Shown piece by piece: positions 1 to 54,458 of a DNA stretch of 64,000 nucleotides (position 1 is its first letter; the number at the start of each line of letters is the position of its first letter). Origin of the DNA: a virus; IMG/VR virus record IMGVR_UViG_3300024299_000001, positions 67,275-131,274 of that record. The stretch is one strand, 5' to 3'. A program made the translations under genes and the position numbers. The notes beneath the pieces are model-generated. The model did not search any database and was not told where the DNA came from. It worked only from the letters and a program-made list of their open reading frames with translations.

Positions 1-2912
1 AATAAAGTTTTTTCAGATGGCTCAGACTCAGAAAATGCCGACGCGTCGTCAGCATTTTCTTCGGGTTTAGAGCCATCTTCTTTCTTTGGTTTCTTTTCAG
101 TTGCATGCTTTGTTCTAAGTACTGCTTCAATTTCTTGTCTTCTGTCAGTATTAGTTTTTTCAGTATTCTGATAAAGAGTTTGTAATTCCGCTTTGGTCAT
201 TTCTTCTAATGTTAAGAATGTTTCAGATTCATCCTGACCAAAAAAAGTATCTTCCTCTTCAACTACAAAATCTTCTTGTACTGGTGTAGTTGTTTCAATA
301 TCTTGGTCTGTTTTATAGGCTTTTAAACCTAATTCTTGTGCTGTTGCAGTAAGAACTTTACCTGTATTTGTTTTTATTTCAATACTATAACCAGTAACAG
401 TTTTTACCCCATTAACTATACTGAAGCTATCTGGAATCACATTACCAGTTACCTGAGCTTTAAAGGTACCAGTGTATTTAGGAAAATCAACAGTAACCCA
501 TTTTCCTTTATTTGTTTTAACTAAAGAAGTTATTTCTTGCTCAGCACTCAAAGGTTGTTCATTACTTCCGACTTCCTCTGAGGAAACATCTTCCGCTGTC
601 GCTGCAGAAATTTCCTCCTCCTCAGTCTCAGACTGAACAACCTTTTCGGCAGTAGGCTGAGCTTGGGGAGGGGTGATCATATCCTGTGCAACTGAAAGAG
701 CTTCAGACAGAGAATCAGCCTCACGCTCCATGGATTGAATTGAAGCTTCAAAGTTTGTATTAAAGTCATAATCGGCATTATAACCAATTGATGCACGTTC
801 AGTGTTCAGTTGTTCTAAGAATTTCTGATCAGCCGCAGAGAATGTTTTAATGACTGCTTCTTGTTCTTCAGTTGTTTTAGCTTTTGCTTTAATTACTGCA
901 TCCTGAAGTCTACGAAATAAATCAGCTTTAATGGCATGTCTTTCAGTGAATGCCTGAAGATCTGATAACTGAGATTTAGCTAATTTGGTGTCCTTATTTT
1001 GTGTTGCAATGGCTATGGATTGCAGGTAGCCCTTGATACCTTTAAATTTATCTTTGATTCTACCATTGATAATATCTTGGTTCACCTGCACAGATGTCTT
1101 GTTTATAGGGCTTTTTTGGCCCTCTAGAGTCGCTTTGGCACTTTTCTGATAGGAGAGTATGCGTTTGAACTTAACCTTCGTTATATCGTCTATTTTGGGG
1201 TTATTCAGGACCTCATTGATATCAGCATCTGTAAAATCACCTTTTGAACCAAAAACAGTAAGAATAGCTTCCTGGATCTTAACAGAATCAGAACCCTTAA
1301 GAATTGTCTTAACTTCTTTGAGTTTCTCAGGTGAAGCAGTCTCTTCTCGGCCCATACTATCGATGACCGGTACTATCTGATCTATGATGGCTTTAGAGGC
1401 CATGGCTTGTTTCATTGCAGAGACGGCTAACTCACCCTCTTCTTTAGTAAGTTCTCTTTCTTCTTTAATTGCCTGGTACTTCTGTACTTCTTTAATTTGT
1501 TCCTGGAATTCAGCATCTACTGCATTATGGATCTCTATTGCTTTATCATGATTGGTTATTTTAACCGATGGATCCAGATCTTTCTTTTGATTAATCTGTT
1601 GTAATGCTTCAGCTGCCAATACAGGATTATCTTTATGCATGGAAATGTCTTCTGTTTCAACAGCAGCTGATAATTTATCTTCATAACCTAATTGTGCTTT
1701 AGGATTCGCTTTAACCCTGAGAGCTTTACGTTCTGCTTTACGTTCAGTAGATTCTTGCTGTTCCTGTTCTGACCGAGTAAATACTCCGCCTACACTGGTA
1801 ACCGGTCCACCAAGTGAACCAAGCATACCAGCATCAAACTGTTCTTTACGAGATTCAGCAGAGAAAGGATTCTTACCAGTACCCCATTGTTCAATGGCTG
1901 TTTGCGCGTACTCTTCAGCAAATTCAACAGGAGCAACTTTACCTGCGGTTACACCAACTCTGGTAGCTTTGCCGGCCACACCACTTACTTTTTTACCTAA
2001 TCCACCAATGGTACTGAGGCCACCTTTTAAAGCTTTTACATTAAACAGTAAATCTAAGTATTCAACTGCTCCGGCCAGTCCAGTAGCAATTCCAGCTTTC
2101 TGGATTTGTTTCCAGGTTACATCTGCTTCCTGGGATAGAGTACCAAATATCTCACCACCCTCTAAACCAAAACCAGCAGAGGCCATACCAATATGGGTAC
2201 CAGCTTTACTGGTTACAGAAGATATTGCTAATTTAGATACTGAATCAGTTGCAGCAACTTTAGCAATGTTTTCAGTAGTTACTTTAGCACCTTGAGTAAT
2301 TAATTGCTGTTTAGCTATCCGATCAGCTTCTTTCTTAACTAAACCACCCATAAGCTTACTAATTGCTTTTTTACCAGTAAGCTCCACACCGGTTTTAATA
2401 ATACCACTACCAACCAACAAGCTAGTTAATTGCCCGGCCACATAACCCGAACCATGGGAGAACCAAGAAACTAATGCTTTCCAATCGCCTTCTTTAGCTT
2501 TTTCATAAGAGTAAGTAAAAGAATCTTCTGGTTGGGCGCCCACACCAATGTCTTGTTCAATTTTATGATACTTACCAGCAGCCGCTTCTTTAATCTTGGT
2601 AGCAATACCACCTTCCCCTACAATCTTTTCAGCCACAAGAGCACCGCCAGCTACTACACCTGAAGCTAACATAGGAATGCCCTTAACTGATTCTACAACA
2701 CCCCGAGCTGCTGCTTCAGGAAGAGTCTCTTTATAAGGGATTAAAGGCTGATTAGGTTCTTGAAAAGTGTTAACACTGCTTCGTAACTGTGCTTCCATAG
2801 TTGCAGTATCAAATTGCTTTTCTGCTGTTTTACTATTCAATATATCTATCTTAGCTTGAAGAGTATTTTGAAGATCAATACCTTTTTGCGGAGCAAGCTC
2901 TGGATCAAACAT
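1..2912 (-). CDS. Large virion protein, N-terminal ~970 codons only (3' end lies beyond window start); occupies the position of N4 gp50 virion RNA polymerase
   Basis: Open minus-strand frame from ATG at 2912 (AGGA upstream) toward the window edge. I hand-translated it and re-checked the segments at 1-120 and ~480-560; no stop seen. Absent from the ORF track because there is no stop in the window. It directly follows the gp51-55-like structural genes, as in N4. The sequence is acidic and coiled-coil rich; no polymerase motifs are visible in this part. Confidence 0.45.
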   Translation of the reverse strand, partial: MFDPELAPQKGIDLQNTLQAKIDILNSKTAEKQFDTATMEAQLRSSVNTFQEPNQPLIPYKETLPEAAARGVVESVKGIPMLASGVVAGGALVAEKIVGEGGIATKIKEAAAGKYHKIEQDIGVGAQPEDSFTYSYEKAKEGDWKALVSWFSHGSGYVAGQLTSLLVGSGIIKTGVELTGKKAISKLMGGLVKKEADRIAKQQLITQGAKVTTENIAKVAATDSVSKLAISSVTSKAGTHIGMASAGFGLEGGEIFGTLSQEADVTWKQIQKAGIATGLAGAVEYLDLLFNVKALKGGLSTIGGLGKKVSGVAGKATRVGVTAGKVAPVEFAEEYAQTAIEQWGTGKNPFSAESRKEQFDAGMLGSLGGPVTSVGGVFTRSEQEQQESTERKAERKALRVKANPKAQLGYEDKLSAAVETEDISMHKDNPVLAAEALQQINQKKDLDPSVKITNHDKAIEIHNAVDAEFQEQIKEVQKYQAIKEERELTKEEGELAVSAMKQAMASKAIIDQIVPVIDSMGREETASPEKLKEVKTILKGSDSVKIQEAILTVFGSKGDFTDADINEVLNNPKIDDITKVKFKRILSYQKSAKATLEGQKSPINKTSVQVNQDIINGRIKDKFKGIKGYLQSIAIATQNKDTKLAKSQLSDLQAFTERHAIKADLFRRLQDAVIKAKAKTTEEQEAVIKTFSAADQKFLEQLNTERASIGYNADYDFNTNFEASIQSMEREADSLSEALSVAQDMITPPQAQPTAEKVVQSETEEEEISAATAEDVSSEEVGSNEQPLSAEQEITSLVKTNKGKWVTVDFPKYTGTFKAQVTGNVIPDSFSIVNGVKTVTGYSIEIKTNTGKVLTATAQELGLKAYKTDQDIETTTPVQEDFVVEEEDTFFGQDESETFLTLEEMTKAELQTLYQNTEKTNTDRRQEIEAVLRTKHATEKKPKKEDGSKPEENADDASAFSESEPSEKTL

Positions 2913-2920
2913 AAGACATC

Positions 2921-4768
2921 CTATTTATTAAGATTAACCGGAAGTGCTCGTAAAAATGAGTCTCTATCTTTTTTTAAACGGCGGGAAGTTCCTTTTGTAA
3001 AGTCCCCACTTTTAAGTTTTTTAATTATTTCAACAGGAGCTCCTGTATGGGTAACACCCCCGAGTTTTTTTATAGTTTTTTCAAATTCTACTGCTGACAT
3101 TTGTTTTATATCTTTGGTTAGTTGATCCCCAACTTGTTTTGAAATAGCAGAATTGTTCTCTAAGGCTCTCTTAAAAGCAGCTTTAGCCTCTATCAAAGAT
3201 TGCTTTTGCAAAGTAGGCGAAGATTCATTAGGAAGTTTTGAAAAAGCTGTACTCATTTGTTCAACAAATGAACCATTATTGACAGTACCAGAAAGGTTTC
3301 CTTTTCGTTGTTCTTGTCTCCAACCTAGTAATGCACCACTCTTTGCAACTGCAGCTTTTTCAAGTTCTCTTTTTAAACTTTTAGAGTCTGTAATTATTTG
3401 TTGTCTAATAGCTTTACCATCATTATATTGCCTCATTCGAGCTCTAATTGTGGCATCTAAAGCTTTTGGGGCTACTCCTTTTGCTCCACCAAAACCATAA
3501 CTATCTCCAACAGAATCCTGATAAGCCAACCAGAGTAAACTATTTGCATCAACATCATTAATACCAGGAAGACTTCTTAATTGCTGTAATTTATTATTTA
3601 AAATAGAACTAACAGTACCTGGGCTAGTTTTTAAAGCGCTCCACCAATCAGAAGGTTCGACTTTTCCTGTTTTTGTGAGACTCTTCATAATCTCGCCTAC
3701 CATACCACCATCCTGCAATACTGTTTTTTCAGCAAATGTTTTTGTATTCTCATCAAGCCCAGTAACATTACTTAATTGTTGCTTTAAAGAATCTATATGC
3801 GCAGTAGCATCTGCTTGTTGTTGTGTAAGCTGTGAATCAGCTTCTAATTTAAGCTGATTATACATTTCTTCTTGAGGACCTTTAAGTTTTTGTTTTTGCT
3901 TTGCATAACCTAGAGCCATGTTAGAAGCAGCTATTTGCTGAGTACCATTAAGGTTTGCTTTTTTAGCACCAACTTGTACTGCTTGTGCAGGATCCATACC
4001 ATTATTAATATTTTTTAAAAAATCAGTGTTGAAAGCGTTAAGAGCTACTCTATCAGCTTCTTGTCTCTGATAAATACTTTCTGTTCTATTTGCTGACATT
4101 TCTTGAGTGAGCTTTTGCTGGACAACATCCCAATTAGCCTTAATCCCTTGTTGTTTACCCGCATCAATGGTTTCTTGAATTTTTGCTGGAGAAGTTATTG
4201 GTCCTGTATTTAATAAGAAAGTGTCTGTAGCATCTTTTCTTTCTTTATTAAATTTATTCTGTAATACCCCAGCTCCTTGTTCCCACTTAGAAGCCTGTTG
4301 CAGTGCCCAGTCATTATCAGCGCCTTTAGCAATCAAATTTTCATATACAGCCTTTGAACCAAGAGTAATATCCTTACCATCGTTGGCTGCTTGAGTACCA
4401 ATTCCAGAGGCAATACTAAGTGCATCAGCCCTTAGATCAGTACGTTGCTTGGCTACATTTTTAGTAAGCTTATCAAAGTTCGCCATCTTACCGTACTGTT
4501 GTTCTATAGTACCAATATCAAACCGACCTGCATCTTCTGCTTGGTTCAACTCACCAAGAGATTTTAACTTTTGTAAGTTAGCTTGGATACCAGTATCAAC
4601 ATTTTCTCCTTGTTGAATAAAATTCTCTTCCTGGAGTTTTTGATGATCGGTAAGTATTTTTTTAAAAGGATCAAACCCACTAATAATATCTTCATTAGCA
4701 TCACCTATTGCTTCCAGTGGGCCTTCAAAGGAGGGTGCATTTACATTCCGCCAAGTAATCTGAGCCAT
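2921..4768 (-). CDS. Virion/ejection-module structural protein, coiled-coil rich
   Basis: 615-aa ORF in the capsid-to-vRNAP block; Q/K/E-rich heptad-like segments; position only. Confidence 0.35.
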   Translation of the reverse strand: MAQITWRNVNAPSFEGPLEAIGDANEDIISGFDPFKKILTDHQKLQEENFIQQGENVDTGIQANLQKLKSLGELNQAEDAGRFDIGTIEQQYGKMANFDKLTKNVAKQRTDLRADALSIASGIGTQAANDGKDITLGSKAVYENLIAKGADNDWALQQASKWEQGAGVLQNKFNKERKDATDTFLLNTGPITSPAKIQETIDAGKQQGIKANWDVVQQKLTQEMSANRTESIYQRQEADRVALNAFNTDFLKNINNGMDPAQAVQVGAKKANLNGTQQIAASNMALGYAKQKQKLKGPQEEMYNQLKLEADSQLTQQQADATAHIDSLKQQLSNVTGLDENTKTFAEKTVLQDGGMVGEIMKSLTKTGKVEPSDWWSALKTSPGTVSSILNNKLQQLRSLPGINDVDANSLLWLAYQDSVGDSYGFGGAKGVAPKALDATIRARMRQYNDGKAIRQQIITDSKSLKRELEKAAVAKSGALLGWRQEQRKGNLSGTVNNGSFVEQMSTAFSKLPNESSPTLQKQSLIEAKAAFKRALENNSAISKQVGDQLTKDIKQMSAVEFEKTIKKLGGVTHTGAPVEIIKKLKSGDFTKGTSRRLKKDRDSFLRALPVNLNK

Positions 4769-9304: not shown

Positions 9305-11104
9305 TTACCACTGTGCAACAGTCCACAACACGGCCAACCGTTCTGGGCGCAAAATCATGGAACCGTAGTACCATTTGATACTCATAAGCCCAGATTCACC
9401 GTAAGGATCCTGCGTGGAAACCATCTCTTTACCTGGTTTCTTATGGAAGATGGTAAACTTGGTGCTTTTACCGCTGGTCTGGAAACCAATAGTAGTAAAT
9501 GAAGCATCACCAACAACAAGCATCGGATACGCATCATAATAACCATCAGTTACACGATAACCAGAGTTAACACCCTCAGCGATACCTACGGAACCGGCAG
9601 CACCGTTATGGTGCATCATCTCAGGAACAACAACAATTCTGAAATGTCCAATGGTACCGATTTCACCATTAATCTCAGAACCAGCAGCCGCATAATGTGC
9701 CAGCGGGATAAATGCCTGGTTACTGAAATGATCAGTCATCTTTTCAATGGTAGGAATCAACTCAGAACCAATATATATAATACGGGCGGAGTTAATAACC
9801 TTTGTATCAACCATTCGGGAACCGGTTATAATCTTGGTGTTCTTAGGACATCTGTTGTTATCAAGATCAATGGAAAGCTTACTTAGATCATCATAATCAA
9901 CTTCAGTCAGGGTAGAAGCAACACCAGACATATCCTCTTTACTTAAAGCATCACCGGCATAACGAATAACACCAGCACCGTTAAGCAGATCAATCTGCAG
10001 AGCATCCTCGGTAATTTCATTGGCACCAAAGAGCATTTCACGGTTAATATGCATGGCCATCTCAGCATCAGTATCAAAGTCCAGAGATTCCTGGGTGTAC
10101 TCATCAAAGAAACCAAATTTCTCAATAGATCCTTCCAGAGTAATACGTTTGAAACCAACACGGTTAACTCTTCCACCAACCTCGGTCAGTGCAGGGAGTT
10201 TACCGGAGATATAACCAACATCTTTACTGGAACCATAAAGATTACCAGCACCATTTACAGAAGTGTTCAGGGTTGTTTCATAACCCAGATCGTAAATAGT
10301 ATTAGCACCTTCTACAGTTTCTGCAACAGACTCAGTACCAGTACCAGCTATTGTACAGGCTACACGACTAGCCTGATAGCCAGCACGATCAAAAGTTGCA
10401 GTAAGAGTTCCACCATTAGTACCGGTACCGGTAGCAAGAGCAAGGGTGAAAGGCATAGCTGCGTAGTTTGCAGCATTTGGGGATGCAATCAAACCAGCCA
10501 GAGCAGCATCAATAGTCTGAACACCAGCCATAGTAAATTCAAGATCTACTCCATCCCAAGTGATAGTAATTACATCATCAGTAGTAAGAGTAACCAGGGT
10601 AATAGTATCAACCTGAATTGCTTCACCGGTAGCTGCCTGAATGGCATAATCGGCTGCAACAGAAGCATGGGCCATGGTTGCATACTGATCAGGAAATTGT
10701 GATTGGATCCAGGCAACAAAAGCTGTCTTTGCAGCAGTAATAGCTGTTGCATCAACTGATGCATGGTTACCAACAAAATATTCTTTCATTCCTGCGCCAA
10801 GGGTACCTTCACCGTCCGGACCTGCAACAGTAATGGTAGATTCAAAAGTCGTTGTTGCACCAGCAGCATCCAATCCCTGATCATTGATATTCGCATCATC
10901 AAGTAAAGGCATGTAATGGTACCGTTTAATTGTTTTACCCATGTGTTTGGGCATGGCCGTTACATCAGCCAACTGGGAAAAGTACTGTTCTTTTTTCAGC
11001 TCAATAAGAGCTTTTTTCTGATAATACTCAGTTACTAGCTGAGTACCTATATCAGACGCCGCTCCGCCTGTTACAAAGCCTCGTCCACCGTCAGGTAGTG
11101 CCAT
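9305..11104 (-). CDS. Major capsid protein (N4 gp56-like) with a large Ala/Thr/Gly-rich internal insertion
   Basis: 599 aa. Sits between the portal/scaffold-like genes and a strong terminator. The N-terminal and C-terminal thirds (..FGFFDEYTQESLDFDTDAEMAMHINREMLFGANE..) resemble N4-like capsid proteins as I recall them. Confidence 0.75.
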   Translation of the reverse strand: MALPDGGRGFVTGGAASDIGTQLVTEYYQKKALIELKKEQYFSQLADVTAMPKHMGKTIKRYHYMPLLDDANINDQGLDAAGATTTFESTITVAGPDGEGTLGAGMKEYFVGNHASVDATAITAAKTAFVAWIQSQFPDQYATMAHASVAADYAIQAATGEAIQVDTITLVTLTTDDVITITWDGVDLEFTMAGVQTIDAALAGLIASPNAANYAAMPFTLALATGTGTNGGTLTATFDRAGYQASRVACTIAGTGTESVAETVEGANTIYDLGYETTLNTSVNGAGNLYGSSKDVGYISGKLPALTEVGGRVNRVGFKRITLEGSIEKFGFFDEYTQESLDFDTDAEMAMHINREMLFGANEITEDALQIDLLNGAGVIRYAGDALSKEDMSGVASTLTEVDYDDLSKLSIDLDNNRCPKNTKIITGSRMVDTKVINSARIIYIGSELIPTIEKMTDHFSNQAFIPLAHYAAAGSEINGEIGTIGHFRIVVVPEMMHHNGAAGSVGIAEGVNSGYRVTDGYYDAYPMLVVGDASFTTIGFQTSGKSTKFTIFHKKPGKEMVSTQDPYGESGLMSIKWYYGSMILRPERLAVLWTVAQW

Positions 11105-38129: not shown

Positions 38130-38240
38130 ATGCCCAATATAACATTGACCCAAGACCAAGATAATGCTCTTAACTCTTTTCTTGATTTTCTTAATCAACC
38201 AAAAGAGAAATACATGATAATCCAAGGAGCTGCTGGATGT
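38130..38240 (+). CDS. Dda/RecD-like SF1 helicase, exon 1 (37 codons; below track cutoff)
   Basis: MPNITLTQDQDNALNSFLDFLNQPKEKYMIIQGAAGC. It ends inside the Walker A motif; SD AAGGAG. Confidence 0.75.
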
Positions 38241-39220
38241 TAACTTATAGCATCCTTTGAGGAGCAATCCTCTCAAAATAAATTCCGTGAATTGCTGGAA
38301 ACTCTTAGCACGTAATGGTGAAGACAATCAGCAGCCAAGCTTAGGAAGGAATTCCTTTGAAGGTTCAACGATCAGGATATACTGCCCAGAACGGGGAATG
38401 AAATCCATAGAGATCAAGTGATCTCGAAGTGCGGAACTCTATATAACAAATAATTCATTGATTTTCCTAAAATTAAAGAGTAAACCTTATGTAAGGTTTA
38501 AACGTATAAATAAAGGAAAATATCATGCAAGAACAGATTCGAGACATTAAAGGCTATGAAGGTAGATATCAAGTTACTAACACAGGTAAAATTTTTTCTT
38601 TACCTAATGGTAGCAGAAAAGGAATAAGAGAATTAAAACAAGAAATAAGCAAACGAAAATGTACTTCTTACAGAAGAATTACATTAAGTGTAAACGCCAA
38701 ACCAAAACGTTATCAAGTACATCAGTTAATGGCTATTGCTTTTATTCCCAATCCTGATAATAAACCTTTTATTAATCATATTGATAATAATGGTGAAAAT
38801 AATTTTATAGATCCCAATGACTTATATGGCCCTAATACAAATATCGAATGGTGTACTCATAAAGAAAATATGAAACATTCGTTTAATCAAGGCCGACAAG
38901 ACTTGGTAAAAAAATTAGGCGGTAAAGCTACTGCTACAATTAAAAAAATTAAAACTATAAAAAAATTAAAATCTTTATTAAATAATAGATTAATCACTAC
39001 CAGTATTTATAGTACACATTCAGGTACTCGTAGAAAAGTCACATATCAATGTAAATATTGTAATAATGTTTTTAGTAGAAGATCTGATTCACCCGCCGTA
39101 TTACGTGGTGGTGTATGTACAGATTGTTATAGAGATGATGATATGATCTAGACTGCATAGAAATATGTAGAAGTTCATTGACGAACTGATGTAAATTAAC
39201 GCCTTACATTGAATGTTTCG
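38241..39220 (+). mobile_element. Group I intron carrying an HNH homing endonuclease gene, inserted inside the helicase Walker A motif
   Basis: The exon end GGATGU pairs with intron GCAUCC 9 nt downstream, giving a 6-bp P1 with terminal U.G. The intron ends in G. Splicing gives GAAGC-GKSTL. The motifs AATTGCTGGAAAC and CAATCAGCAGC are shared with the intron at 52916. Confidence 0.75.
38525..39151 (+). CDS. HNH homing endonuclease (I-HmuI-like)
   Basis: IKGYEGRYQVTNTGKIFS, VHQLMAIAFIPNP.NKPFINHIDNNGENN...NIEWCTHKEN, and a C-terminal CxxC..CxxC. Confidence 0.8.
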   Translation: MQEQIRDIKGYEGRYQVTNTGKIFSLPNGSRKGIRELKQEISKRKCTSYRRITLSVNAKPKRYQVHQLMAIAFIPNPDNKPFINHIDNNGENNFIDPNDLYGPNTNIEWCTHKENMKHSFNQGRQDLVKKLGGKATATIKKIKTIKKLKSLLNNRLITTSIYSTHSGTRRKVTYQCKYCNNVFSRRSDSPAVLRGGVCTDCYRDDDMI

Positions 39221-40381
39221 GGTAAGAGTACCCTTATTAAATATCTGATGAGAGCACTGGAAGCTCAATATAAAATGTATGCACTCCTGCTGCAGACCAA
39301 TAAAAAACAAAGTAAATTTGAAGTAAGGGTTTCAGCAACAACCAACCAGGCAGTCTCAGTACTTGAAGAATTAACGAACTGTGATGCAACTACTATCCAT
39401 TCTCTTCTTGGTTTAAAAGTTGTTAATAATATTAAAACTGGTAAAACTGAACTTGAACGTAAAAAAGATTATGCCCCTCTTTATAATAAATTATTTATAA
39501 TTGATGAAGCCAGCATGATTGATGATAACTTATTAAAAGAAATTGATGCTACAGCTAAAAACTCTAAAATAGTTTTAATTGGAGATGAATGGCAACTTGC
39601 TCCAGTAGGACAAAAGATTGCAACCATGTCCACTCTTAATTTCAGAAAAGTTAAAATGAATAAGATTTTAAGAAATAGTGGTGCCATCATGCAGACGGGT
39701 GCACAATTCCGAGAGACAGCTGAAACAGGCATCTTTAAACCAATTAAACAAGATCCCACTGTTGCCCATGTTACTGGATCCAAGTTTCAAAGATTAGTAG
39801 ATGCCGCTTTCATGGATCCAAATTATGTAACCAATTCAATTAAAGTACTGGCTTGGACCAATGCCAGAGTACAGGCCTACAATGCTCATATCCGTCAAAT
39901 CAACGGGTACGCCAAATTACTACAAGCTGGAGAATATGCAATTACTAATAATGCCCTTAATGAAAGAGGTTATTTTTATAAAACAGATAGTTTTGTTAAA
40001 ATTACTGATGCAAGCAGTGAACGAGAAAGATTAGGAGTACGCGGACGCAATATTGAAATCAATGGCAAATTAATTGGTTTCATGGCAAATGATCCTCATG
40101 ATGTTAAATTACTTTTAAAATCATTAGCTGCACAGAAAGAATGGACTGATTATTTCAGTGTTAAAGAGACTTGGTTTGACCTCCGACCAGCATATGCCAG
40201 TACAGTGCATAAAGCCCAAGGTAGGTCCTACAATACTGTATTTATTGACCTGGCAGATATAAGTAAATGCAGGGTTGCATCAGACGTTGCGAGAATGCTA
40301 TATGTTGCCATCAGTCGCAGTAAACATCAGGTCTATTTATACGGCCAATTACCCCCTAAATATGGAGGTTACAAACCATAA
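39221..40381 (+). CDS. Dda/RecD-like SF1 helicase, exon 2
   Basis: GKSTLIKYL, Walker B LFIIDEASMI, motif VI STVHKAQGRSYNTVFIDL. Confidence 0.8.
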   Translation, partial: GKSTLIKYLMRALEAQYKMYALLLQTNKKQSKFEVRVSATTNQAVSVLEELTNCDATTIHSLLGLKVVNNIKTGKTELERKKDYAPLYNKLFIIDEASMIDDNLLKEIDATAKNSKIVLIGDEWQLAPVGQKIATMSTLNFRKVKMNKILRNSGAIMQTGAQFRETAETGIFKPIKQDPTVAHVTGSKFQRLVDAAFMDPNYVTNSIKVLAWTNARVQAYNAHIRQINGYAKLLQAGEYAITNNALNERGYFYKTDSFVKITDASSERERLGVRGRNIEINGKLIGFMANDPHDVKLLLKSLAAQKEWTDYFSVKETWFDLRPAYASTVHKAQGRSYNTVFIDLADISKCRVASDVARMLYVAISRSKHQVYLYGQLPPKYGGYKP

Positions 40382-41865: not shown

Positions 41866-41877
41866 ACAGGAGTAACT

Positions 41878-42834
41878 ATGCAACATATTCTTTTTGGTTC
41901 AGATTCTTCTTTAGTTTCTATTGCTATTTTAATTAAAACTACGGCTTTTGCTAAAAGTACAATCCAAAGGGCTTATGTAACCCCATCAACTATTCCTTCT
42001 GAAAAATTTATAGCTTTTGATTTAGCATATACTTTAAATAATAAATGTCCTGCTAAACTGGCTAAAGAATATCTTGAAGACTTACTGCCTGAAATAAGTA
42101 TTTTAAATGTAACTACTCTTTTGGTTTGTGATCCAATTTACTTTAAAATATTAACCAAATTAAAAAAGGTTAATGACTGTTATGGGCATATTTATGAATG
42201 TGCCATTAAAGATTATGAATACTTAGATATTATTTTAGCACCCAACTACCAATCAGTACTTTATAATCCTGCAATACAAAGTAAGATCGATACAGCCAAT
42301 GAAACCCTCATTGATCATGTGGGCAACACTTATGTAGTTCCAGGAACTAATGTTATTCATTCTGCCTATTATCCAGAAACTATATCCGCTATTAAAGCAG
42401 CTTTACATGATCTGCAGCAATATCCAGCATTAACATGTGATATTGAAGCAACTAGTTTAAAATTCTATAAAGCAAAGATAGAAACAATAGCTTTTGCTTG
42501 GGATAAACATAATTTTATTGCTTTTTGTGTAGGAAGAGACAACACCACAAATACACAAATTCAAATACAAACCATGTTACGAAAGTTTTTTACGTTGTAC
42601 AAAGGTACAACAATATGGCATAATGCAAATTATGATCATAAAGTTTTAATTTATAATCTATGGATGCAACATTTAGCTGATTATAAAAATATGATTAAAG
42701 GAATTAAAATTATGACTAAAAACTTTGAAGACACGAAACTAATAGCTTATCTTGCAACTAATAATGCTATTCAAAACAAGTTAAGTTTAAAAGAACTGTC
42801 TTCCCCTTTTATGGGTAATTATGGAGTACTTTAA
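41878..42834 (+). CDS. Family A DNA polymerase, N-terminal piece (3'-5' exonuclease Exo I and Exo II)
   Basis: TCDIEATSL (Exo I) and WHNANYDHKVL (Exo II). Ends ..MGNYGVL* just before Exo III. Confidence 0.8.
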   Translation: MQHILFGSDSSLVSIAILIKTTAFAKSTIQRAYVTPSTIPSEKFIAFDLAYTLNNKCPAKLAKEYLEDLLPEISILNVTTLLVCDPIYFKILTKLKKVNDCYGHIYECAIKDYEYLDIILAPNYQSVLYNPAIQSKIDTANETLIDHVGNTYVVPGTNVIHSAYYPETISAIKAALHDLQQYPALTCDIEATSLKFYKAKIETIAFAWDKHNFIAFCVGRDNTTNTQIQIQTMLRKFFTLYKGTTIWHNANYDHKVLIYNLWMQHLADYKNMIKGIKIMTKNFEDTKLIAYLATNNAIQNKLSLKELSSPFMGNYGVL

Positions 42835-42835
42835 A

Positions 42836-43486
42836 ATGAAACAAAAATTAGTAGGTAAACGTTTTGGTAAATTATTAGTCATTAATGAAGAACCAGAAAG
42901 AGCAAACAATTCAAGGTATTTTAAAGTACTTTGTGATTGTGGTAATACCCCTGTAATGCATATGTCTAGTATAAAACGTAAAATAGCAGGTATTAAAAGT
43001 TGTGGTTGTGCTAATAAACATAATGGTACTGGGACCCGTTTACACAGTATTTGGCAAAATATGAAACAACGCTGTTTAAATCCAAAAAATACTAATTATA
43101 GAAATTATGGAAAAAAAGGTATCACAATCTGTACTCTTTGGTTAGAAGATTTTACTTTGTTTCGTACTTGGGCTTTAAATAGTGGATACCACGCTAATTT
43201 AACTATAGACAGAAAAAACGGAAAATTAGGATATACACCATTAAATTGTAGATGGGTAGACCAAATAACACAAACTCGTAATTCTTATAAACGAAGGAAA
43301 ACCAATTCAAAATATATTGGAGTATGTTTTTACCAACGTACTAAATTATGGGCAGCATATATTAATGTTGACAAAAAACGTATCCATTTAGGTTTTCACT
43401 CTTCCGAATATAAAGCGGCTATAGCTAGAGATTCTTATATTGTAGCACATAATTTACAAAATTTTATTATGAATGAGGTGTTATAG
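42836..43486 (+). CDS. Free-standing homing endonuclease (HNH-like IDR..N..N plus AP2 DNA-binding domain)
   Basis: GKRFGKLLVI, LHSIWQNMKQRC.NP, LTIDRKNGKLGYTPLNCRWVDQITQTRN, YIGVCFYQRTKLWAAYI...HLGFH. Fills the whole gap between the two polymerase pieces. Confidence 0.75.
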   Translation: MKQKLVGKRFGKLLVINEEPERANNSRYFKVLCDCGNTPVMHMSSIKRKIAGIKSCGCANKHNGTGTRLHSIWQNMKQRCLNPKNTNYRNYGKKGITICTLWLEDFTLFRTWALNSGYHANLTIDRKNGKLGYTPLNCRWVDQITQTRNSYKRRKTNSKYIGVCFYQRTKLWAAYINVDKKRIHLGFHSSEYKAAIARDSYIVAHNLQNFIMNEVL

Positions 43487-45120
43487 TGGGTGTTACTGCA
43501 AAAATAGCAACTCCAGATTTATTAAAGTATAATGGTCAAGATTGCTTGGCTACCTGGTACGTTAATGAGACCCATAAACCAACAATGATAGCTGATCAAC
43601 AAGAGCAACTATATGAAGAATTATTTAAACCAACAGTAATTACTCTCTTGCAGACTGAGCTGTGTGGCATGCCAATTAATCCAAAAAAAGTACAATTTGC
43701 TAAACTTCATTTAGTTTCTATTGAACATACCTGTTTAGATTATTTTAATAATTCTAAATTAATCCAAGATTTTCATTTTACTCAATTAATAGCATTAGCA
43801 GAAAAGATGACTGCTAAAGCTAAAAAGAAAATTTACGATATCACTGATCCAATCATTGCCCGGGAAGTATTTAATCCTGGCAGTGATACCCAACTCAGGG
43901 CTTTAATCTTTGATTATATGGGTTACGATATAATCAATCTTACAAAAGGTAAACAAGCCTCTACCAGCAAGGGTACCATTGAGAAGTTAATTAATCATGC
44001 CAAGACTCCTGAACATAAAGAAATATTTGAACATCTTATTAAATTAGCTGATGTCAGTATCTTACTTTCAACTTTTATTCCTTCAATGGAGAAAGCACAA
44101 AGATTACCTGATGGTAGTTACCGGTTATATGGTAACTTTAATCTTGGCGGGACCCAAAGCTTAAGGCTATCCAGTTCAGATCCTAATCTGCAAAATATTC
44201 CATCACATTCAATATTTGCTCAAATCATTAAAGAATGCTTCGAACCGATTATTGGTTGGTTATTCTTTGGTTCAGACTTTGATGCACTGGAAGATAAAAC
44301 AAATGCTCTAATAACTAAAGATCCAAATAAATTAAAAATCTATACTGATGGTTTTTGTGGCCACTGTCTTCGGGCATTCTCTTACTTTGGCGATAAAATG
44401 AATGGTATTATTGAAACAGTTACTTCTATTAATTCCATTAAAAAACTCTATCCTGATCTAAGACAAGATTCTAAAGCCCCTACCTTTGCACTTACCTACG
44501 GGGGAAGTTTTCATACTTTAATGAAGAATTGTGGATTTACTAAACCTCAAGCCAAACAAATTGAAAAGATGTACCACCAGCTTTACACCGTAGCAGATAA
44601 ATGGGTTGATAATCTTGTAGAGCAAGCCAAAAAAATAGGATACATTCCCTTAGCATTTGGTGGCCGGATACGTACCCCATTGCTCGCTAAAACCGTAGGG
44701 AAGGTCAAAGTACCCTTTGCAGCTCAAAAGGAGGCTAGGAGTGCAGGAAATGCTGCTACACAGTCATATTGTTTCCTGACCCAACGTGCAATGAATGAAT
44801 TCAGAGAAAGAGTATGGGCTTCACCATATATTTACACTATATTACCTGCTGCTACAATTCATGATGCAGCTTATTACATGGGACAAGATAATGCTGATCT
44901 GATCAAATGGGCCAATGATAATCTCATTGATTGTATGGCTTGGCAGCAATTACCTGAACTAATGCATCCTACGATTAAAATAAGCTCTGGATTAGAGATT
45001 TACTGGCCTTCCTGGGGTAATAAGGTCAAGATACCCAATAACGCTTCTAAACAGCAAATTAAAGCCCTTTGTTTGAAAGCTGAACAAGAAGAAAAGGCTA
45101 AACAATTAATTACACCATAA
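43486..45120 (+). CDS. Family A DNA polymerase, C-terminal piece (Exo III + polymerase domain)
   Basis: GTG start after GAGGTG. Contains YNGQDCLATW (Exo III), SSSDPNLQNIP, RQDSKAPTFALTYG (motif B) and IHDAAYY (motif C). Confidence 0.85.
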   Translation: MGVTAKIATPDLLKYNGQDCLATWYVNETHKPTMIADQQEQLYEELFKPTVITLLQTELCGMPINPKKVQFAKLHLVSIEHTCLDYFNNSKLIQDFHFTQLIALAEKMTAKAKKKIYDITDPIIAREVFNPGSDTQLRALIFDYMGYDIINLTKGKQASTSKGTIEKLINHAKTPEHKEIFEHLIKLADVSILLSTFIPSMEKAQRLPDGSYRLYGNFNLGGTQSLRLSSSDPNLQNIPSHSIFAQIIKECFEPIIGWLFFGSDFDALEDKTNALITKDPNKLKIYTDGFCGHCLRAFSYFGDKMNGIIETVTSINSIKKLYPDLRQDSKAPTFALTYGGSFHTLMKNCGFTKPQAKQIEKMYHQLYTVADKWVDNLVEQAKKIGYIPLAFGGRIRTPLLAKTVGKVKVPFAAQKEARSAGNAATQSYCFLTQRAMNEFRERVWASPYIYTILPAATIHDAAYYMGQDNADLIKWANDNLIDCMAWQQLPELMHPTIKISSGLEIYWPSWGNKVKIPNNASKQQIKALCLKAEQEEKAKQLITP

Positions 45121-52798: not shown

Positions 52799-52915
52799 GT
52801 GGTCGATCAAAATGATAATCTTGTATTAATTGTTGGTTCAAGTGGTGGTGGTAAATCAGCATCATTACGGGATATTAAAGATCCCCAAAATGTATATTAC
52901 TTCAATTGTGAAGCT
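52799..52915 (+). CDS. AAA_24/RecA-like ATPase, exon 1 (39 codons; below track cutoff; N4 gp44 position)
   Basis: GTG start 5 nt after AAGGAGG; VVDQNDNLVLIVGSSGGGKSASLRDIKDPQNVYYFNCEA (Walker A). Confidence 0.7.
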
Positions 52916-53843
52916 AAATAATTGGCTTCGTTAAACCCATTGAATTGCTGGAAACCCCAAACAAATAATGTTGTGGGCAATCAGCAGCGAAGACTTAACG
53001 TGTCTTGACAGAGCAGTTTAAATATGGTACTTTGAACAACTTCTCAATTAAATAAAGGAGAAATTGTATGAAAGAATACATAGAAGAAACTGAAACTGGA
53101 ATTTACAGAATAACCGAAAGAGGTAAGATCTTTTCCCAAAGTAAGCTTAAAATACCTATTGTGGGAAAAGGTATGCAACATACAGGAAAATTCCACATGA
53201 TAACAAAACCTGAAAGGGAACTAACATATACTCTCAATAATAGAGGGTATTTATCAGTAGGAATTATGAAAAAAACTTTTATGGTGCATAGATTAATCGC
53301 TAAAGTATTTGTAATTAATCCGTGTAATAAGCCTCAAGTGAACCATATTGATGGTAACAAACTAAATAATTGCGCTTTAAACTTGGAATGGTGTACAGCC
53401 CAAGAAAATATCCAACATGCTTATAGAATTGGTATAAATAAAGGATGTCTTGGGCTAAAACGCATATATAGTAGTGCCCAAATTAAAGCTAAATGTCTTG
53501 CAAATTTAAAGAATAAATCTAAACTGACTCCTGATGAAGTCAAATATGTTAGAAAAGTATATATTGCAAGAGATAAAAATTTTAGTTGTACTGCATTAGC
53601 TACACAATTTAATGTTAGTATCGCCGCCATGAGTAAAATTGTAAAAAGACAGTCCTATCAACACATTAAGTAACGTTCAACGACTATCGAAAGCATCTTA
53701 TATAAGATAAGCAAGTAGAGTACACCCAAGTGGGTGGAAGCGGTGGGACGTAGAAATACGTATGATATAGTCTACTCTCATATGAAAGTATGAGCAGAGT
53801 TAAAAGCTCGATATTAGCGTAACGAACTAATATGAATATAAGG
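52916..53843 (+). mobile_element. Group I intron carrying an HNH homing endonuclease gene
   Basis: The exon end GAAGCU pairs with intron GGCUUC 8 nt downstream, giving a 6-bp P1 with terminal U.G. The intron ends in G. Splicing gives NCEA-NKKLPF. Shares 5' core motifs with the intron at 38241 and 3' core motifs with the intron at 33117. Confidence 0.75.
53068..53673 (+). CDS. HNH homing endonuclease (I-HmuI-like) with C-terminal HTH
   Basis: GIYRITERGKIFS, VHRLIAKVFVINP.NKPQVNHIDGNKLNN..NLEWCTAQEN. Confidence 0.8.
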   Translation: MKEYIEETETGIYRITERGKIFSQSKLKIPIVGKGMQHTGKFHMITKPERELTYTLNNRGYLSVGIMKKTFMVHRLIAKVFVINPCNKPQVNHIDGNKLNNCALNLEWCTAQENIQHAYRIGINKGCLGLKRIYSSAQIKAKCLANLKNKSKLTPDEVKYVRKVYIARDKNFSCTALATQFNVSIAAMSKIVKRQSYQHIK

Positions 53844-54458
53844 AATAAAAAATTACCATTTCCAGCTAAATTTCAACAGTTTAATATTACCAATCCTTAC
53901 CAGGTTCATGAGGGATTAGTACATGCTGAATCCAAACCTGATATTCATACTATTGTAATTGATAGTTTAACCTTTTTAATGGATATGTGTGAGTTACAGT
54001 TTATTCTGGATGACCGGATAACTGATACAATGAAAGGATGGGCCGAATACCAAAAATTCTTTAAAAAACTTATGCAGGAACATGTTGCAAAGTCTACAAA
54101 GAATATCATATTCACAGCCCATGTTCAGTCAATCCTTAATGAGACAGATATGGTTCTTGAGAAAAAGGTACCTATTAAGGGTGCTTTAAAAGCAAATGGT
54201 GTTGAGGCTTATTTCAGTACTATTGTGAGCGCACGAACCATAACGGTAAATAAACTGACAAACTTTAAGAATCCACTACTTACTGTTACACCTGAAGAAG
54301 AAACTTTAGGATTTAAGTATGTATACCAAACCCAATTAACCAAAGAAACGGTCAATGAAAGGATCCGTGCCAGTATGGGTATGTGGACCCAACAAGAAAC
54401 TTTCATTGATAACAATGCACAATTTTTAATGGATCGATTACATAAATACTATGTGTAA
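53844..54458 (+). CDS. AAA_24/RecA-like ATPase, exon 2
   Basis: Walker B IVIDSLTFLMD. The track ORF 53832..54458 starts 12 nt inside the intron. Confidence 0.7.
   Translation, partial: NKKLPFPAKFQQFNITNPYQVHEGLVHAESKPDIHTIVIDSLTFLMDMCELQFILDDRITDTMKGWAEYQKFFKKLMQEHVAKSTKNIIFTAHVQSILNETDMVLEKKVPIKGALKANGVEAYFSTIVSARTITVNKLTNFKNPLLTVTPEEETLGFKYVYQTQLTKETVNERIRASMGMWTQQETFIDNNAQFLMDRLHKYYV

What the first reader, a model, noticed from the sequence alone, without database searches (positions are those of the whole stretch)
41878..45120. Family A DNA polymerase cut into two separately translated pieces by an intron-less HNH/AP2 endonuclease, within the exonuclease domain
Piece 1 is 318 aa and carries Exo I (DIEATSL) and Exo II (NANYDHKVL). 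It ends MGNYGVL*. Piece 2 is 544 aa and starts (M)GVTAKIATPDLLKYNGQDCLATW, so Exo III and the whole polymerase domain are on a different polypeptide.

The 651-nt gap is filled completely by the endonuclease ORF. It starts 1 nt after the stop of piece 1, and its stop overlaps the GTG of piece 2, which has its own GAGGTG Shine-Dalgarno. That leaves no room for a ribozyme core. I found no P1 partner for the exon end, and there are no intein blocks.

The codons GGA GTA CT / GGT GTT ACT on the two sides look like a short duplicated junction (G-V). This resembles the genes-in-pieces arrangement known for a few T4-like phage genes split by free-standing endonucleases. Here, though, the split would require the 3'-5' exonuclease active site to be assembled from two chains.
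Basis: partly seen in the sequence, partly recalled or inferred. Interest (0 to 1): 0.6.

Follow-up and report, generated by a model that had tools for sequence, protein, structure and literature searches.

The report
Phage DNA polymerase split by endonuclease
An N4-like marine phage carries its replicative DNA polymerase as two separately translated genes, cut inside the proofreading domain by a mobile endonuclease gene with no intron; this is a real new example of the known 'genes in pieces' arrangement, not a new kind of system.

Summary
Piece 1 (41878-42834, 318 aa) matches phage N4 DNA polymerase residues 1-324. Piece 2 (43486-45120, 544 aa) matches residues 333-857. Nothing is lost or added. 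Exo I and Exo II lie on piece 1; Exo III and the whole polymerase domain lie on piece 2.

The 651-nt gap is one ORF (42836-43486). No group I intron is detectable there. The same scan does find a group I intron in this phage's own helicase gene. There are no intein halves, and the polymerase frame has 28 stop codons across the gap.

The same split recurs in at least 20 diverged metagenomic relatives. Piece 1 always ends G(N/D)YG(V/I/L)(L/F/M)*. Where I fetched the context, stop/start overlaps or short spacers recur and the exonuclease catalytic residues are kept. dN/dS is 0.14-0.20.

The split is patchy on the tree, and a mosaic tract of about 200 codons surrounds it, so the cassette is mobile.

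Two details fail. The 'G-V duplication' is chance. 'HNH' is unproven: the AP2 fold is supported, but the catalytic histidine is missing.

HNH-split N4-like polymerases were already reported in 2013, at other sites. Verdict: a new member of a known kind, of moderate interest.

The parts
41868..41872 (+). Shine-Dalgarno sequence (AGGAG) of polymerase piece 1
   Evidence: Read from the sequence
41878..42834 (+). DNA polymerase piece 1, 318 aa: N4-type N-terminal domain plus the first part of the 3'-5' exonuclease domain. It ends MGNYGVL*
   Evidence: BLASTP aligns it to N4 gp39 residues 1-324 at E 2e-55
42439..42459 (+). Exo I motif DIEATSL (catalytic Asp and Glu)
42622..42648 (+). Exo II motif NANYDHKVL (catalytic Asp)
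42823..42826 (+). GGAG, 9 nt upstream of the insert ORF start, lying inside the last codons of piece 1
42836..43486 (+). Free-standing endonuclease-like ORF, 216 aa. It has an N-terminal CxC...CGC zinc ribbon, a predicted beta-beta-alpha module and a C-terminal AP2 domain. It starts 1 nt after the stop of piece 1
   Evidence: phrog_374 'HNH endonuclease' at 1e-59; AF2 model with pLDDT 90.9; homologs
43199..43282 (+). Predicted beta-beta-alpha module LTIDRKNGKLGYTPLNCRWVDQITQTRN (insert residues 122-149). It is HNH-like in topology, but Arg126 (or Asp125) sits where the catalytic His should be
43313..43453 (+). AP2 DNA-binding domain of the insert ORF (residues 160-206)
   Evidence: Pfam PF00847 at E 0.004, below its cutoff. 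Foldseek matches TEM1 and ERF1 AP2 domains with probability 0.99-1.00 and rmsd 1.7-2.2 A
43475..43480 (+). GAGGTG Shine-Dalgarno sequence for piece 2, encoded inside the last codons (N-E-V-L) of the insert ORF. It is visibly conserved in relatives L012, L009 and L022
43486..45120 (+). DNA polymerase piece 2, 544 aa, with a GTG start that overlaps the insert TAG by 1 nt. It carries the Exo III helix plus the thumb, palm and fingers
   Evidence: BLASTP aligns it to N4 gp39 residues 333-857 at E 2e-161
43528..43542 (+). Exo III motif YNGQD (catalytic Tyr and Asp), residues 15-19 of piece 2
44275..44877 (+). Polymerase motifs A (DFDALE), B (RQDSKAPTFALTYG) and C (HDAAYY)

Best explanation
The window is most of the genome of an uncultured N4-like (Schitoviridae) phage.

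Its replicative family A DNA polymerase gene has been invaded by a free-standing, intron-less mobile endonuclease gene. The invader belongs to a family with a zinc ribbon, a beta-beta-alpha module and an AP2 domain. The insertion point codes for a flexible surface loop between Exo II and the Exo III helix.

The cassette supplies a stop codon for the upstream part. It also supplies a Shine-Dalgarno sequence and a start codon for the downstream part. One mRNA is therefore read as three consecutive, translationally coupled ORFs: piece 1, the endonuclease, then piece 2.

Piece 1 holds the N-terminal domain, Exo I and Exo II. Piece 2 holds the Exo III helix and the polymerase. I infer that the two re-associate non-covalently, with the Exo III helix docking back into the exonuclease fold. 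That would rebuild a proofreading polymerase whose DEDDy active site comes from two chains.

The endonuclease gene spreads between co-infecting N4-like phages by recombination. It drags about 200 codons of flanking exonuclease-domain sequence with it.

Shown here: the gene anatomy, the absence of a detectable intron or intein, conservation and purifying selection on both pieces, loop placement in a model of an unsplit homolog, patchy phylogenetic distribution, and the mosaic tract.

Inferred: separate translation, physical assembly, retained exonuclease activity, and nuclease activity of the insert protein.
For: Anatomy and clean split.

No ribozyme: a permissive Rfam scan (E<=10) of 42300-44000 gives no intron hit.
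- The same method finds RF00028 at 43.3 bits, E 2.2e-9, in the helicase gene of this window.
- It finds weak RF00028 hits flanking the HNH_3 ORF in the ATPase gene.
- It finds RF00028 at 50.3 bits elsewhere in L012, but nothing in the polymerase insertions of seven relatives.

No read-through or intein: 28 in-frame stops. No extra residues against N4.

Conservation of the split:
- 21 of the 120 listed protein clusters end G(N/D)YG(V/I/L)(L/F/M)* at 40-61% identity to piece 1.
- 5 of the 150 best representatives of 50%-identity clusters do the same.
- Eight fetched contexts show piece 1, then ORF(s), then piece 2. In seven of them the ORF at this site is a homolog of the window's insert. L008 instead has two unrelated ORFs there, and a homolog at a second site.
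- The insert stop or ORF end overlaps the piece 2 start in eight of nine loci. The piece 1 stop overlaps, or lies 1 nt before, the insert start in four of them; the others have spacers of 17-58 nt. GAGG/GGAG is visible in the insert's last codons in the window, L012, L009 and L022.

Function retained:
- The DxE, (H/Q)NxxYD and YNxxD motifs are intact in the window and seven of the eight relatives; for L009 the Exo I pattern search did not return the aligned motif, so Exo I is unconfirmed there.
- dN/dS for L009 against L022 is 0.14 for piece 1 and 0.20 for piece 2.
- The phage was recovered on at least 19 contigs from several samples.

Loop placement: an AF2 model of the unsplit homolog P0007 has pLDDT 93.8. 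The equivalent position lies in a 10-residue coil (310-319, block pLDDT 77) just before helix 325-352, which carries Exo III. The fold matches Klenow, Bst and G20c PolA.

Mobility:
- Fitch parsimony needs 7-9 gains or losses on 30 bootstrap NJ trees.
- The inserts of L028 and L026 are 64% identical, although their piece 1 sequences are only 45% identical.
- Split L021 against unsplit L030 shows 83-100% identity over residues 1-150. It shows 31-63% over about 181-375, apart from 80% in the conserved block 287-316. It returns to 87-90% over 376-465 and is 67% over 466-525.

Precedent that such splits work: Aeh1 NrdA and phage 25 gp43A/B (PMC2988022), and PhiKZ DNAP N+C. Cultured coliphages U1G and PGN829.1 carry a homolog of the same endonuclease inside their N4-like polymerase gene.
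Against: - There are no RNA or protein data. Separate translation, assembly and exonuclease activity are all inferred.
- Rfam models can miss very degenerate introns.
- The insert protein lacks the canonical HNH catalytic histidine. It is not recognised by Pfam HNH models or by a profile comparison with a true HNH_3 ORF (probability 0.07%). Its nuclease activity, and so the homing mechanism, is uncertain.
- The mosaic tract and patchy distribution could also come from ordinary recombination between phages, or from precise losses.
- The NJ trees rest on long branches.
- dS is near saturation (0.8-1.1) in the only pair suitable for dN/dS.
- Piece 2 uses a GTG start here, where relatives use ATG.
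Confidence: 0.8

Rival explanations
1. The insertion is a group I (or other self-splicing) intron whose ORF fills almost all of it. The mRNA is spliced and a single polymerase of about 860 aa is made.
For: - HNH ORFs in phage genes often sit in group I introns, and Fouts et al. suggested this for the JA-1 polymerase.
- This same genome has at least one such intron, in its helicase gene.
- The exon ends would allow a U before a 5' splice site (..CTT) and a G at the intron end (GTG).
Against: - No RF00028 or any other intron hit at E<=10 in 42300-44000. The positive controls in the same genome score 43.3 bits.
- Only 1 nt and -1 nt of non-coding sequence flank the ORF. The two probable introns of this genome have about 70-280 nt on each side.
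- Relatives have inserts as short as 443 nt, fully coding, with no intron hit.
- The stop of piece 1 is conserved at one codon position in more than 20 lineages. Piece 2 starts in overlap with the insert ORF in eight of nine fetched loci. Neither would be expected for a spliced intron.
Confidence: 0.04
2. Piece 1 is a decaying remnant. Piece 2 alone is the working polymerase, without proofreading, or proofreading is supplied elsewhere.
For: - Some phage PolA enzymes lack an integral exonuclease and use a separate one. Thermus phage G20c PolI and ExnV1 appear among the PDB matches.
- Piece 2 contains the complete polymerase domain.
Against: - Piece 1 stays an intact ORF of 315-339 aa across lineages only 35-77% identical.
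- Its dN/dS is 0.14.
- The Exo I and Exo II catalytic residues are kept in the window and seven of the eight relatives; Exo I was not confirmed in L009.
- Piece 2 keeps the Exo III Tyr and Asp, which would be useless without piece 1.
- Piece 1 also carries the N4-specific N-terminal domain.
Confidence: 0.08
3. The two pieces are joined after translation by a split intein, as in the 'fractured gene' arrangement with a free-standing endonuclease between the intein halves.
For: This arrangement exists in marine metagenomes, including in replication genes (Dassa et al. 2009, PMC2677866, listed). Relative L026 has a weak Intein_splicing hit in another part of its polymerase.
Against: Piece 1 ends, and piece 2 begins, within a few residues of the positions that are contiguous in N4 DNAP. 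There is no room for an N-intein of about 100 aa or a C-intein of about 35 aa. Pfam finds no intein or Hint domain.
Confidence: 0.01
4. The two chains assemble, but the insert ORF is no longer a nuclease. It persists as a domesticated or merely tolerated DNA-binding protein, and it spreads only by general recombination.
For: - The catalytic His is absent in the whole family. D125 and R126 are near-invariant.
- No Pfam HNH hit in 102 homologs.
- In L009 and L022 the ORF is cut down to 141 aa, with the beta-beta-alpha residues changed, yet dN/dS is 0.25.
Against: - The ORF family occupies different conserved genes in different N4-like phages: the RNAPII gp15/gp16 junction, and polymerase sites at about 325 and about 581.
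- It is more similar between L028 and L026 than its host gene is.
- It sits at the centre of a mosaic tract.
All of this is typical of an active homing element.
Confidence: 0.15

Closest known systems
Aeromonas phage Aeh1 nrdA-a / mobE / nrdA-b (Friedrich et al. 2007; reviewed in PMC2988022)
   Same: An HNH-type free-standing endonuclease gene sits inside a conserved, functionally critical region of an essential enzyme gene. There is no splicing. Two polypeptides reassemble into an active enzyme.
   Different: The host gene is ribonucleotide reductase, not a polymerase. The endonuclease is of the MobE family. Function was shown by experiment there and is only inferred here.
Split gp43A/gp43B family B DNA polymerase of T4-related Aeromonas phages 25 and 44RR (Petrov et al. 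2010; cited in PMC2988022)
   Same: A replicative phage DNA polymerase is encoded as two genes, with a homing endonuclease gene (seg43) or a spacer between them. The halves co-purify and are active.
   Different: It is a family B enzyme. One search does not say where in gp43 the cut lies; from my own recollection, not checked here, it is outside the exonuclease active site. Here the DEDDy exonuclease site itself is divided (Exo I and II on one chain, Exo III on the other).
HNH-split DNA polymerases of cultured N4-like phages: Vibrio JA-1 and VCO139 (Fouts et al. 2013, PMC3670811), and GenBank annotations of Pollock, Pylas, Shigella B2, U1G, PGN829.1 and phi 1
   Same: The same polymerase family (N4 gp39 type) is interrupted by an endonuclease ORF. 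In U1G and PGN829.1 that ORF is a homolog (33% identity) of the one here. In U1G it overlaps both polymerase pieces, as it does here.
   Different: All of those cuts map to N4 residues about 557-610, in the polymerase domain. This one maps to about 324-332, in the exonuclease domain. JA-1 has spacers of 118-144 nt and its authors suspected an intron. An even sample of 60 of the 468 N4-like records in the phage collection showed no interruption at this site.
Group I intron with an HNH ORF, as in the helicase gene of this same phage (38241-39220)
   Same: A mobile endonuclease ORF interrupts a conserved motif of a replication gene.
   Different: The helicase insertion has a recognisable ribozyme (RF00028, E 2e-9), a P1 helix with a U.G pair, a terminal G, and 284 and 69 nt of non-coding RNA around the ORF. 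The polymerase insertion has none of these.
Fractured genes with split inteins and a free-standing endonuclease (Dassa et al. 2009, PMC2677866)
   Same: In marine metagenomic loci, an endonuclease gene lies between two halves of a replication enzyme gene.
   Different: There are no intein halves here, so no protein ligation is expected.
PhiKZ two-subunit family B DNA polymerase DNAP-N/DNAP-C (2026 preprint, PMC13648687)
   Same: A phage polymerase forms a stable complex from two gene products, with a catalytic site built from both chains.
   Different: There it is the polymerase site that is shared, and the exonuclease site lies wholly on one chain. The genes are not adjacent and no endonuclease is involved.

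Membership tests
Genes in pieces made by a free-standing homing endonuclease | The host gene is contiguous in relatives and is split here into two ORFs with no loss or gain of coding sequence | tested here: met
   Piece 1 aligns to N4 1-324 and piece 2 to N4 333-857. Unsplit relatives have the same length across the junction.
Genes in pieces made by a free-standing homing endonuclease | The intervening ORF is not inside a self-splicing intron or an intein | tested here: met
   No intron model at E<=10, with positive controls in the same genome and negative results in seven relatives. There are 28 in-frame stops and no intein residues. Splicing itself was not assayed.
Genes in pieces made by a free-standing homing endonuclease | The element is mobile: sporadic distribution and exchange of flanking sequence | tested here: met
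   7-9 gains or losses on bootstrap trees. Mosaic tract between L021 and L030. Insert more similar than flanks between L028 and L026.
Genes in pieces made by a free-standing homing endonuclease | The two polypeptides are made separately and assemble into an active enzyme | not testable with these tools
   Only indirect support: start/stop architecture shared by the fetched loci, catalytic residues kept in the window and seven of eight relatives, dN/dS 0.14-0.20, and placement in a loop.
HNH (beta-beta-alpha-metal) endonucleases | Match to a curated HNH model | tested here: not met
   No Pfam HNH family for this ORF at E<=10. None precomputed for 102 homologs. hhalign against a true HNH_3 ORF gives probability 0.07%. 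Only the PHROG label 'HNH endonuclease' applies.
HNH (beta-beta-alpha-metal) endonucleases | A beta-beta-alpha fold with a catalytic His and the Asn/His metal ligands | tested here: inconclusive
   AF2 predicts strand 123-126, strand 138-141 and helix 143-149. N137 and N149 are conserved, but the His position holds R126 or D125. The best nuclease match in Foldseek is PacI at E 0.64.
AP2 DNA-binding domain | A three-stranded sheet packed on one helix, and a match to PF00847 | tested here: met
   Pfam gives 17.7 bits, below the cutoff of 33.3, and E 2e-6 to 4e-5 in relatives. Foldseek matches TEM1 AP2 (probability 1.00, rmsd 1.7 A, 28-30% identity) and AtERF1 (probability 0.99).
Group I intron with an internal homing endonuclease ORF | A conserved ribozyme core (P3-P8) and a P1 helix with a U.G pair at the 5' splice site | tested here: not met
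   Contrast with the helicase intron.
Split-intein 'fractured gene' | N-intein and C-intein halves at the broken ends | tested here: not met
   No unaccounted sequence at either end. No Hint or intein Pfam hit.
Family A DNA polymerase with a DEDDy 3'-5' exonuclease | Exo I, II and III motifs and polymerase motifs A, B and C | tested here: met
   PF01612 and PF00476 both above cutoff. Motifs located. The model of a homolog matches Klenow, Bst and G20c PolI.
N4-like phages (Schitoviridae) | N4-type replication and structural genes in N4 order | tested here: met
   The best tblastn hits for both pieces are Schitoviridae. The genome also has an N4-type primase, exonuclease, portal and major head protein, and helicase, gp38-like ORF and DNAP in N4 order. 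The virion RNA polymerase was not identified. A 974-codon open frame runs off the window start.

The most novel reading that the evidence does not exclude
The split is more than a tolerated scar. The exonuclease core and the inserted ORF travel together as one co-adapted mobile cassette. The inserted protein may also have been partly domesticated. In L009 and L022 it is truncated to a 141-aa AP2 protein that has lost its zinc ribbon and its beta-beta-alpha residues, yet it has stayed under purifying selection (dN/dS 0.25) and stays translationally coupled between the two polymerase halves. It might act as a DNA-binding accessory or assembly factor of the two-chain polymerase. Alternatively, the stoichiometry of piece 1 might tune proofreading.
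Probability: 0.1. Interest if true: 0.7.

Novelty: new member of a known kind. Interest (0 to 1): 0.42.

Why it matters
This adds a family A polymerase, cut through its proofreading active site, to the short list of essential phage enzymes that seem to work as 'genes in pieces'.

The same cut is kept in many diverged environmental N4-like phages. Related phages carry further cuts: just after Exo II with no endonuclease left, or polymerases in three to five pieces. The N4-type polymerase therefore looks unusually tolerant of fragmentation, and it is a hot spot for selfish elements.

That gives natural, evolution-tested split points for engineering split PolA enzymes. It also gives a clear test case for how a DEDDy exonuclease site reassembles from two chains.

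It matters for annotation too. Automated pipelines call piece 1 a stand-alone protein and may miss that the polymerase is intact.

Tried and rejected
- Megablast of the region against 50,697 phage records found no near relative.
- phmmer of the insert ORF against PDB sequences gave nothing meaningful. phmmer of piece 1 against PDB gave only a marginal hit to exonuclease ExnV1.
- The promoter and terminator scan gave fewer promoter-like sites than shuffled sequence and no terminator inside the three-ORF unit. It is uninformative.
- Population-level dN/dS within this phage failed: contigs L013-L020 differ from the window by only 2-6 nt over 3.2 kb.
- The GC profile across the locus showed only a weak dip (0.26-0.33 against 0.31-0.36), too weak to delimit a transferred tract.
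- The profile comparison of the insert family with a true HNH_3 ORF was not significant.
- The 'duplicated G-V junction' was rejected after comparison with split and unsplit relatives.
- A single ancient insertion inherited vertically was considered, because piece 1 and the insert diverge to similar degrees in some pairs. It was rejected as the only explanation because of the patchy tree, the L028/L026 discordance and the L021/L030 mosaic.
- No empty-site allele of this particular phage was found. All of the at least 19 contigs carry the insert.
- I did not check all 468 N4-like phage records for this split, only an even sample of 60 plus the top hits.

Full report
**What is there.**
- Piece 1 runs from ATG 41878 to TAA 42834 (318 aa).
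- An inserted ORF runs from ATG 42836 to TAG 43486 (216 aa).
- Piece 2 runs from GTG 43486 to 45120 (544 aa).

Pfam places the 3'-5' exonuclease family PF01612 on piece 1 and DNA_pol_A (PF00476) on piece 2. PHROG 17 (DNA polymerase) matches the two pieces at consecutive profile positions.

tblastn shows that the closest cultured relatives are all N4-like phages (Schitoviridae) at about 45-48% identity. No near-identical genome is in the phage collection.

Against N4 gp39 (859 aa), piece 1 covers residues 1-324 and piece 2 covers 333-857. The gene is therefore simply cut, with nothing missing. Exo I and Exo II are on piece 1. Exo III (YNGQD) and polymerase motifs A-C are on piece 2.

The arrangement occurs on at least 19 independent contigs from several samples, so it is not an assembly artefact.

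**Is it an intron or an intein?** The gap between the pieces is 651 nt, and the ORF fills all of it except 1 nt. A permissive Rfam scan (E<=10) of 42300-44000 gives no intron family.

This negative result has an internal positive control. The helicase gene of the same window is interrupted inside its Walker A motif (GAAGC|GKST) by a 980-nt insertion (38241-39220).
- The insertion scores 43.3 bits (E 2.2e-9) for RF00028.
- It has a P1 helix with a U.G pair and a terminal G.
- It carries a NUMOD4-type ORF.
- An intron-less allele exists in the same phage population.

A second interrupted gene, an AAA_24 ATPase with an HNH_3 ORF at 53068-53673, has weak RF00028 hits on both sides of its ORF. In seven relatives that share the polymerase split, the scan finds a group I intron elsewhere (L012) but never in the polymerase insertion.

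The polymerase frame has 28 stops across the gap. No residues are left over that could form intein halves. The 'intron-less, intein-less' reading is therefore well supported computationally.

**Is the split conserved?** A search of 5.8 billion proteins with piece 1 listed its 120 best hits. Of these, 21 clusters of 274-339 aa, 40-61% identical to piece 1, all end at the same codon with G(N/D)YG(V/I/L)(L/F/M)*. An exhaustive search of 1.84 billion cluster representatives found five such endings among the best 150.

I fetched eight such contexts: L008, L009, L012, L021, L022, L026, L027 and L028. In all of them piece 1 is followed by one or two ORFs and then by a piece 2 that starts at the homologous position.
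- In seven loci the ORF at this site is a homolog of the one here (30-64% identity).
- In L009 and L022 it is truncated to 141 aa.
- In L008 two unrelated ORFs replace it, and a homolog sits at a second split site.

The piece 1 stop overlaps the insert start, or lies 1 nt before it, in the window, L012, L021 and L008. The other loci have spacers of 17-58 nt. The insert stop or ORF end overlaps the piece 2 start in eight of the nine loci. A GAGG/GGAG Shine-Dalgarno sequence is visible inside the last codons of the insert in the window, L012, L009 and L022. This points to three translationally coupled ORFs on one mRNA.

The summed length of the pieces equals that of unsplit relatives such as GNYGVDVTDINKVP, so the duplication is coincidence.

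**Are both pieces functional?** The catalytic residues of Exo I and II (piece 1) and Exo III (piece 2) are intact in the window and seven of the eight relatives; for L009 the Exo I pattern search did not return the aligned motif, so Exo I is unconfirmed there. Between L009 and L022, dN/dS is 0.14 for piece 1 and 0.20 for piece 2.

An AlphaFold2 model of the unsplit homolog P0007 has pLDDT 93.8. It puts the cut in a 10-residue coil with the lowest confidence in the exonuclease domain, immediately before the long helix that carries Exo III. The model matches Klenow, Bst and phage G20c PolA structures.

I infer that piece 2 donates the Exo III helix to the fold formed by piece 1. The DEDDy site would then be built from two chains. 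This assembly is not shown.

**Is the element mobile?** On NJ trees of the piece 1 region, the split lineages are scattered among unsplit ones. Parsimony needs 7-9 gains or losses on 30 bootstrap trees.

The inserts of L028 and L026 are 64% identical, although their polymerase pieces are only 41-45% identical.

Split L021 and unsplit L030 form a clear mosaic.
- They are 83-100% identical over residues 1-150.
- They are 31-63% identical over about 181-375, which is the exonuclease core on both sides of the insertion, apart from 80% in the conserved block 287-316.
- They are 87-90% identical again over 376-465, and 67% over 466-525.

This is the signature of an endonuclease gene moving together with a flanking tract.

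**What is the inserted protein?** PHROGs label it an HNH endonuclease (E 1e-59). Pfam sees only a sub-threshold AP2 domain. None of 102 homologs has a Pfam HNH domain.

An AlphaFold2 model (pLDDT 90.9) shows N-terminal beta hairpins with a CxC...CGC motif, a beta-beta-alpha unit at residues 123-149, and a C-terminal three-strand-plus-helix domain. Foldseek confirms the AP2 fold (probability 0.99-1.00, rmsd 1.7-2.2 A). It gives no significant nuclease match.

In the family alignment the position of the HNH catalytic histidine holds a near-invariant Asp-Arg pair. 'AP2' is therefore supported and 'HNH' remains unproven.

Homologs sit between the RNAPII subunit genes of Pectobacterium N4-like phages. 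They also sit inside the polymerase domain of coliphages U1G and PGN829.1.

**Comparison with what is known.** Genes in pieces created by free-standing endonucleases are established for Aeh1 nrdA/mobE, T4 gene 39/60/mobA and gene 43 of phage 25 (PMC2988022).

HNH ORFs splitting the N4-like DNA polymerase were reported in 2013 for Vibrio phages JA-1 and VCO139 (PMC3670811). They are also annotated in Pollock, Pylas, Shigella B2, U1G, PGN829.1 and phi 1. All of those cuts map to N4 residues about 557-610.

Split family A polymerases are also noted in marine cyanophage and OM43-phage genomes. A two-chain family B polymerase of PhiKZ has been reconstituted.

What is new here is the site, between Exo II and Exo III, and the evidence that this cut is widespread and maintained. 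An even sample of 60 of the 468 N4-like records in the phage collection showed no interruption at this site.

I therefore rate it a new member of a known kind, of moderate interest.

**Limits.**
- No expression data exist.
- The trees are distance-based with long branches.
- dS is near saturation.
- The survey of deposited phages was a sample.
- The nuclease activity of the insert protein is unknown.

Noticed in passing
window 38131-40381 (intron 38241-39220; ORF 38525-39151): The Dda/PIF1-type helicase gene is interrupted inside its Walker A motif (GAAGC|GKST) by a 980-nt group I intron. Rfam RF00028 scores 43.3 bits, E 2e-9. P1 is GGAUGU|UAACUUAUAGCAUCC and the intron ends in G. It carries a 208-aa NUMOD4-type endonuclease ORF. 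Intron-less alleles with a 423-aa helicase exist in the same phage population (L013, L014, L016-L018), and L015 has the intron. This is a natural presence/absence polymorphism.
   Followed up: yes
window 52799-54458: An AAA_24-type ATPase gene appears to be split. Exon 1 (GTG 52799, MVDQNDNLVLIVGSSGGGKS..) and exon 2 (53832-54458, matching only profile positions 58-172) are separated by an HNH_3 ORF (53068-53673). Weak group I intron hits lie on both sides of that ORF (E 0.027 and 0.0068). It is probably a second group I intron.
   Followed up: partly
L029 4501-7233: In another N4-like contig the polymerase is cut just after Exo II (piece 1 of 282 aa ending ..ELWMREV; piece 2 of 604 aa). The spacer is only 69 nt and holds a 27-codon remnant (..SKGFKWRYHGIK) that looks like the tail of a lost endonuclease. 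At least eight diverged protein clusters end at this site (P0025, P0041, P0057, P0061, P0071, P0078, P0090, P0116). A split inside the exonuclease domain can therefore persist without any endonuclease.
   Followed up: partly
L008 5001-9199; L009 5001-8279; L026 1918-6883: Some relatives carry the polymerase in three or more pieces. L008 has 319+278+334 aa with two different insertions. L009 has 319+386+200 aa. L026 has at least four polymerase fragments interleaved with an AP2-type ORF, an intein-like ORF and two HNH_3 ORFs.
   Followed up: partly
L009 5979-6404; L022 5981-6406: The insert ORF is truncated to 141 aa. The zinc ribbon is lost and IDR is changed to LCR or LNR. It still overlaps the start of piece 2, and it evolves under purifying selection (70% identity, dN/dS 0.25). 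This suggests a retained non-nuclease role.
   Followed up: partly
L006 3492-4154; L007 3480-4142: The closest cultured homologs of the insert ORF (about 39% identity) sit between the two RNA polymerase II subunit genes (N4 gp15/gp16 homologs) of Pectobacterium N4-like phages phiA41 and Possum.
   Followed up: no
window 9305-11104 (- strand): The major head protein ORF is 598 aa, although the matching PHROG profile is 356 positions long (match 15-598 to 25-348). It has about 250 extra residues with no Pfam hit. This could be an inserted domain.
   Followed up: no
proteins P0025 and P0230 (one 90% cluster): A 273-aa polymerase fragment that ends just after Exo II shares a 90%-identity cluster with an 873-aa full-length protein. 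This suggests a recent split/unsplit allele pair at that second site.
   Followed up: no
L012 5644-5947: A group I intron (RF00028, 50.3 bits) lies next to a NUMOD4/HNH_3 ORF downstream of the polymerase in a relative.
   Followed up: no
window 1-2950 (- strand): A 974-codon open frame runs off the start of the window. It may be part of the giant virion RNA polymerase gene expected in N4-like phages. Contigs of 66,617, 97,263 and 131,274 nt carry the same proteins, which suggests concatemeric assemblies.
   Followed up: no
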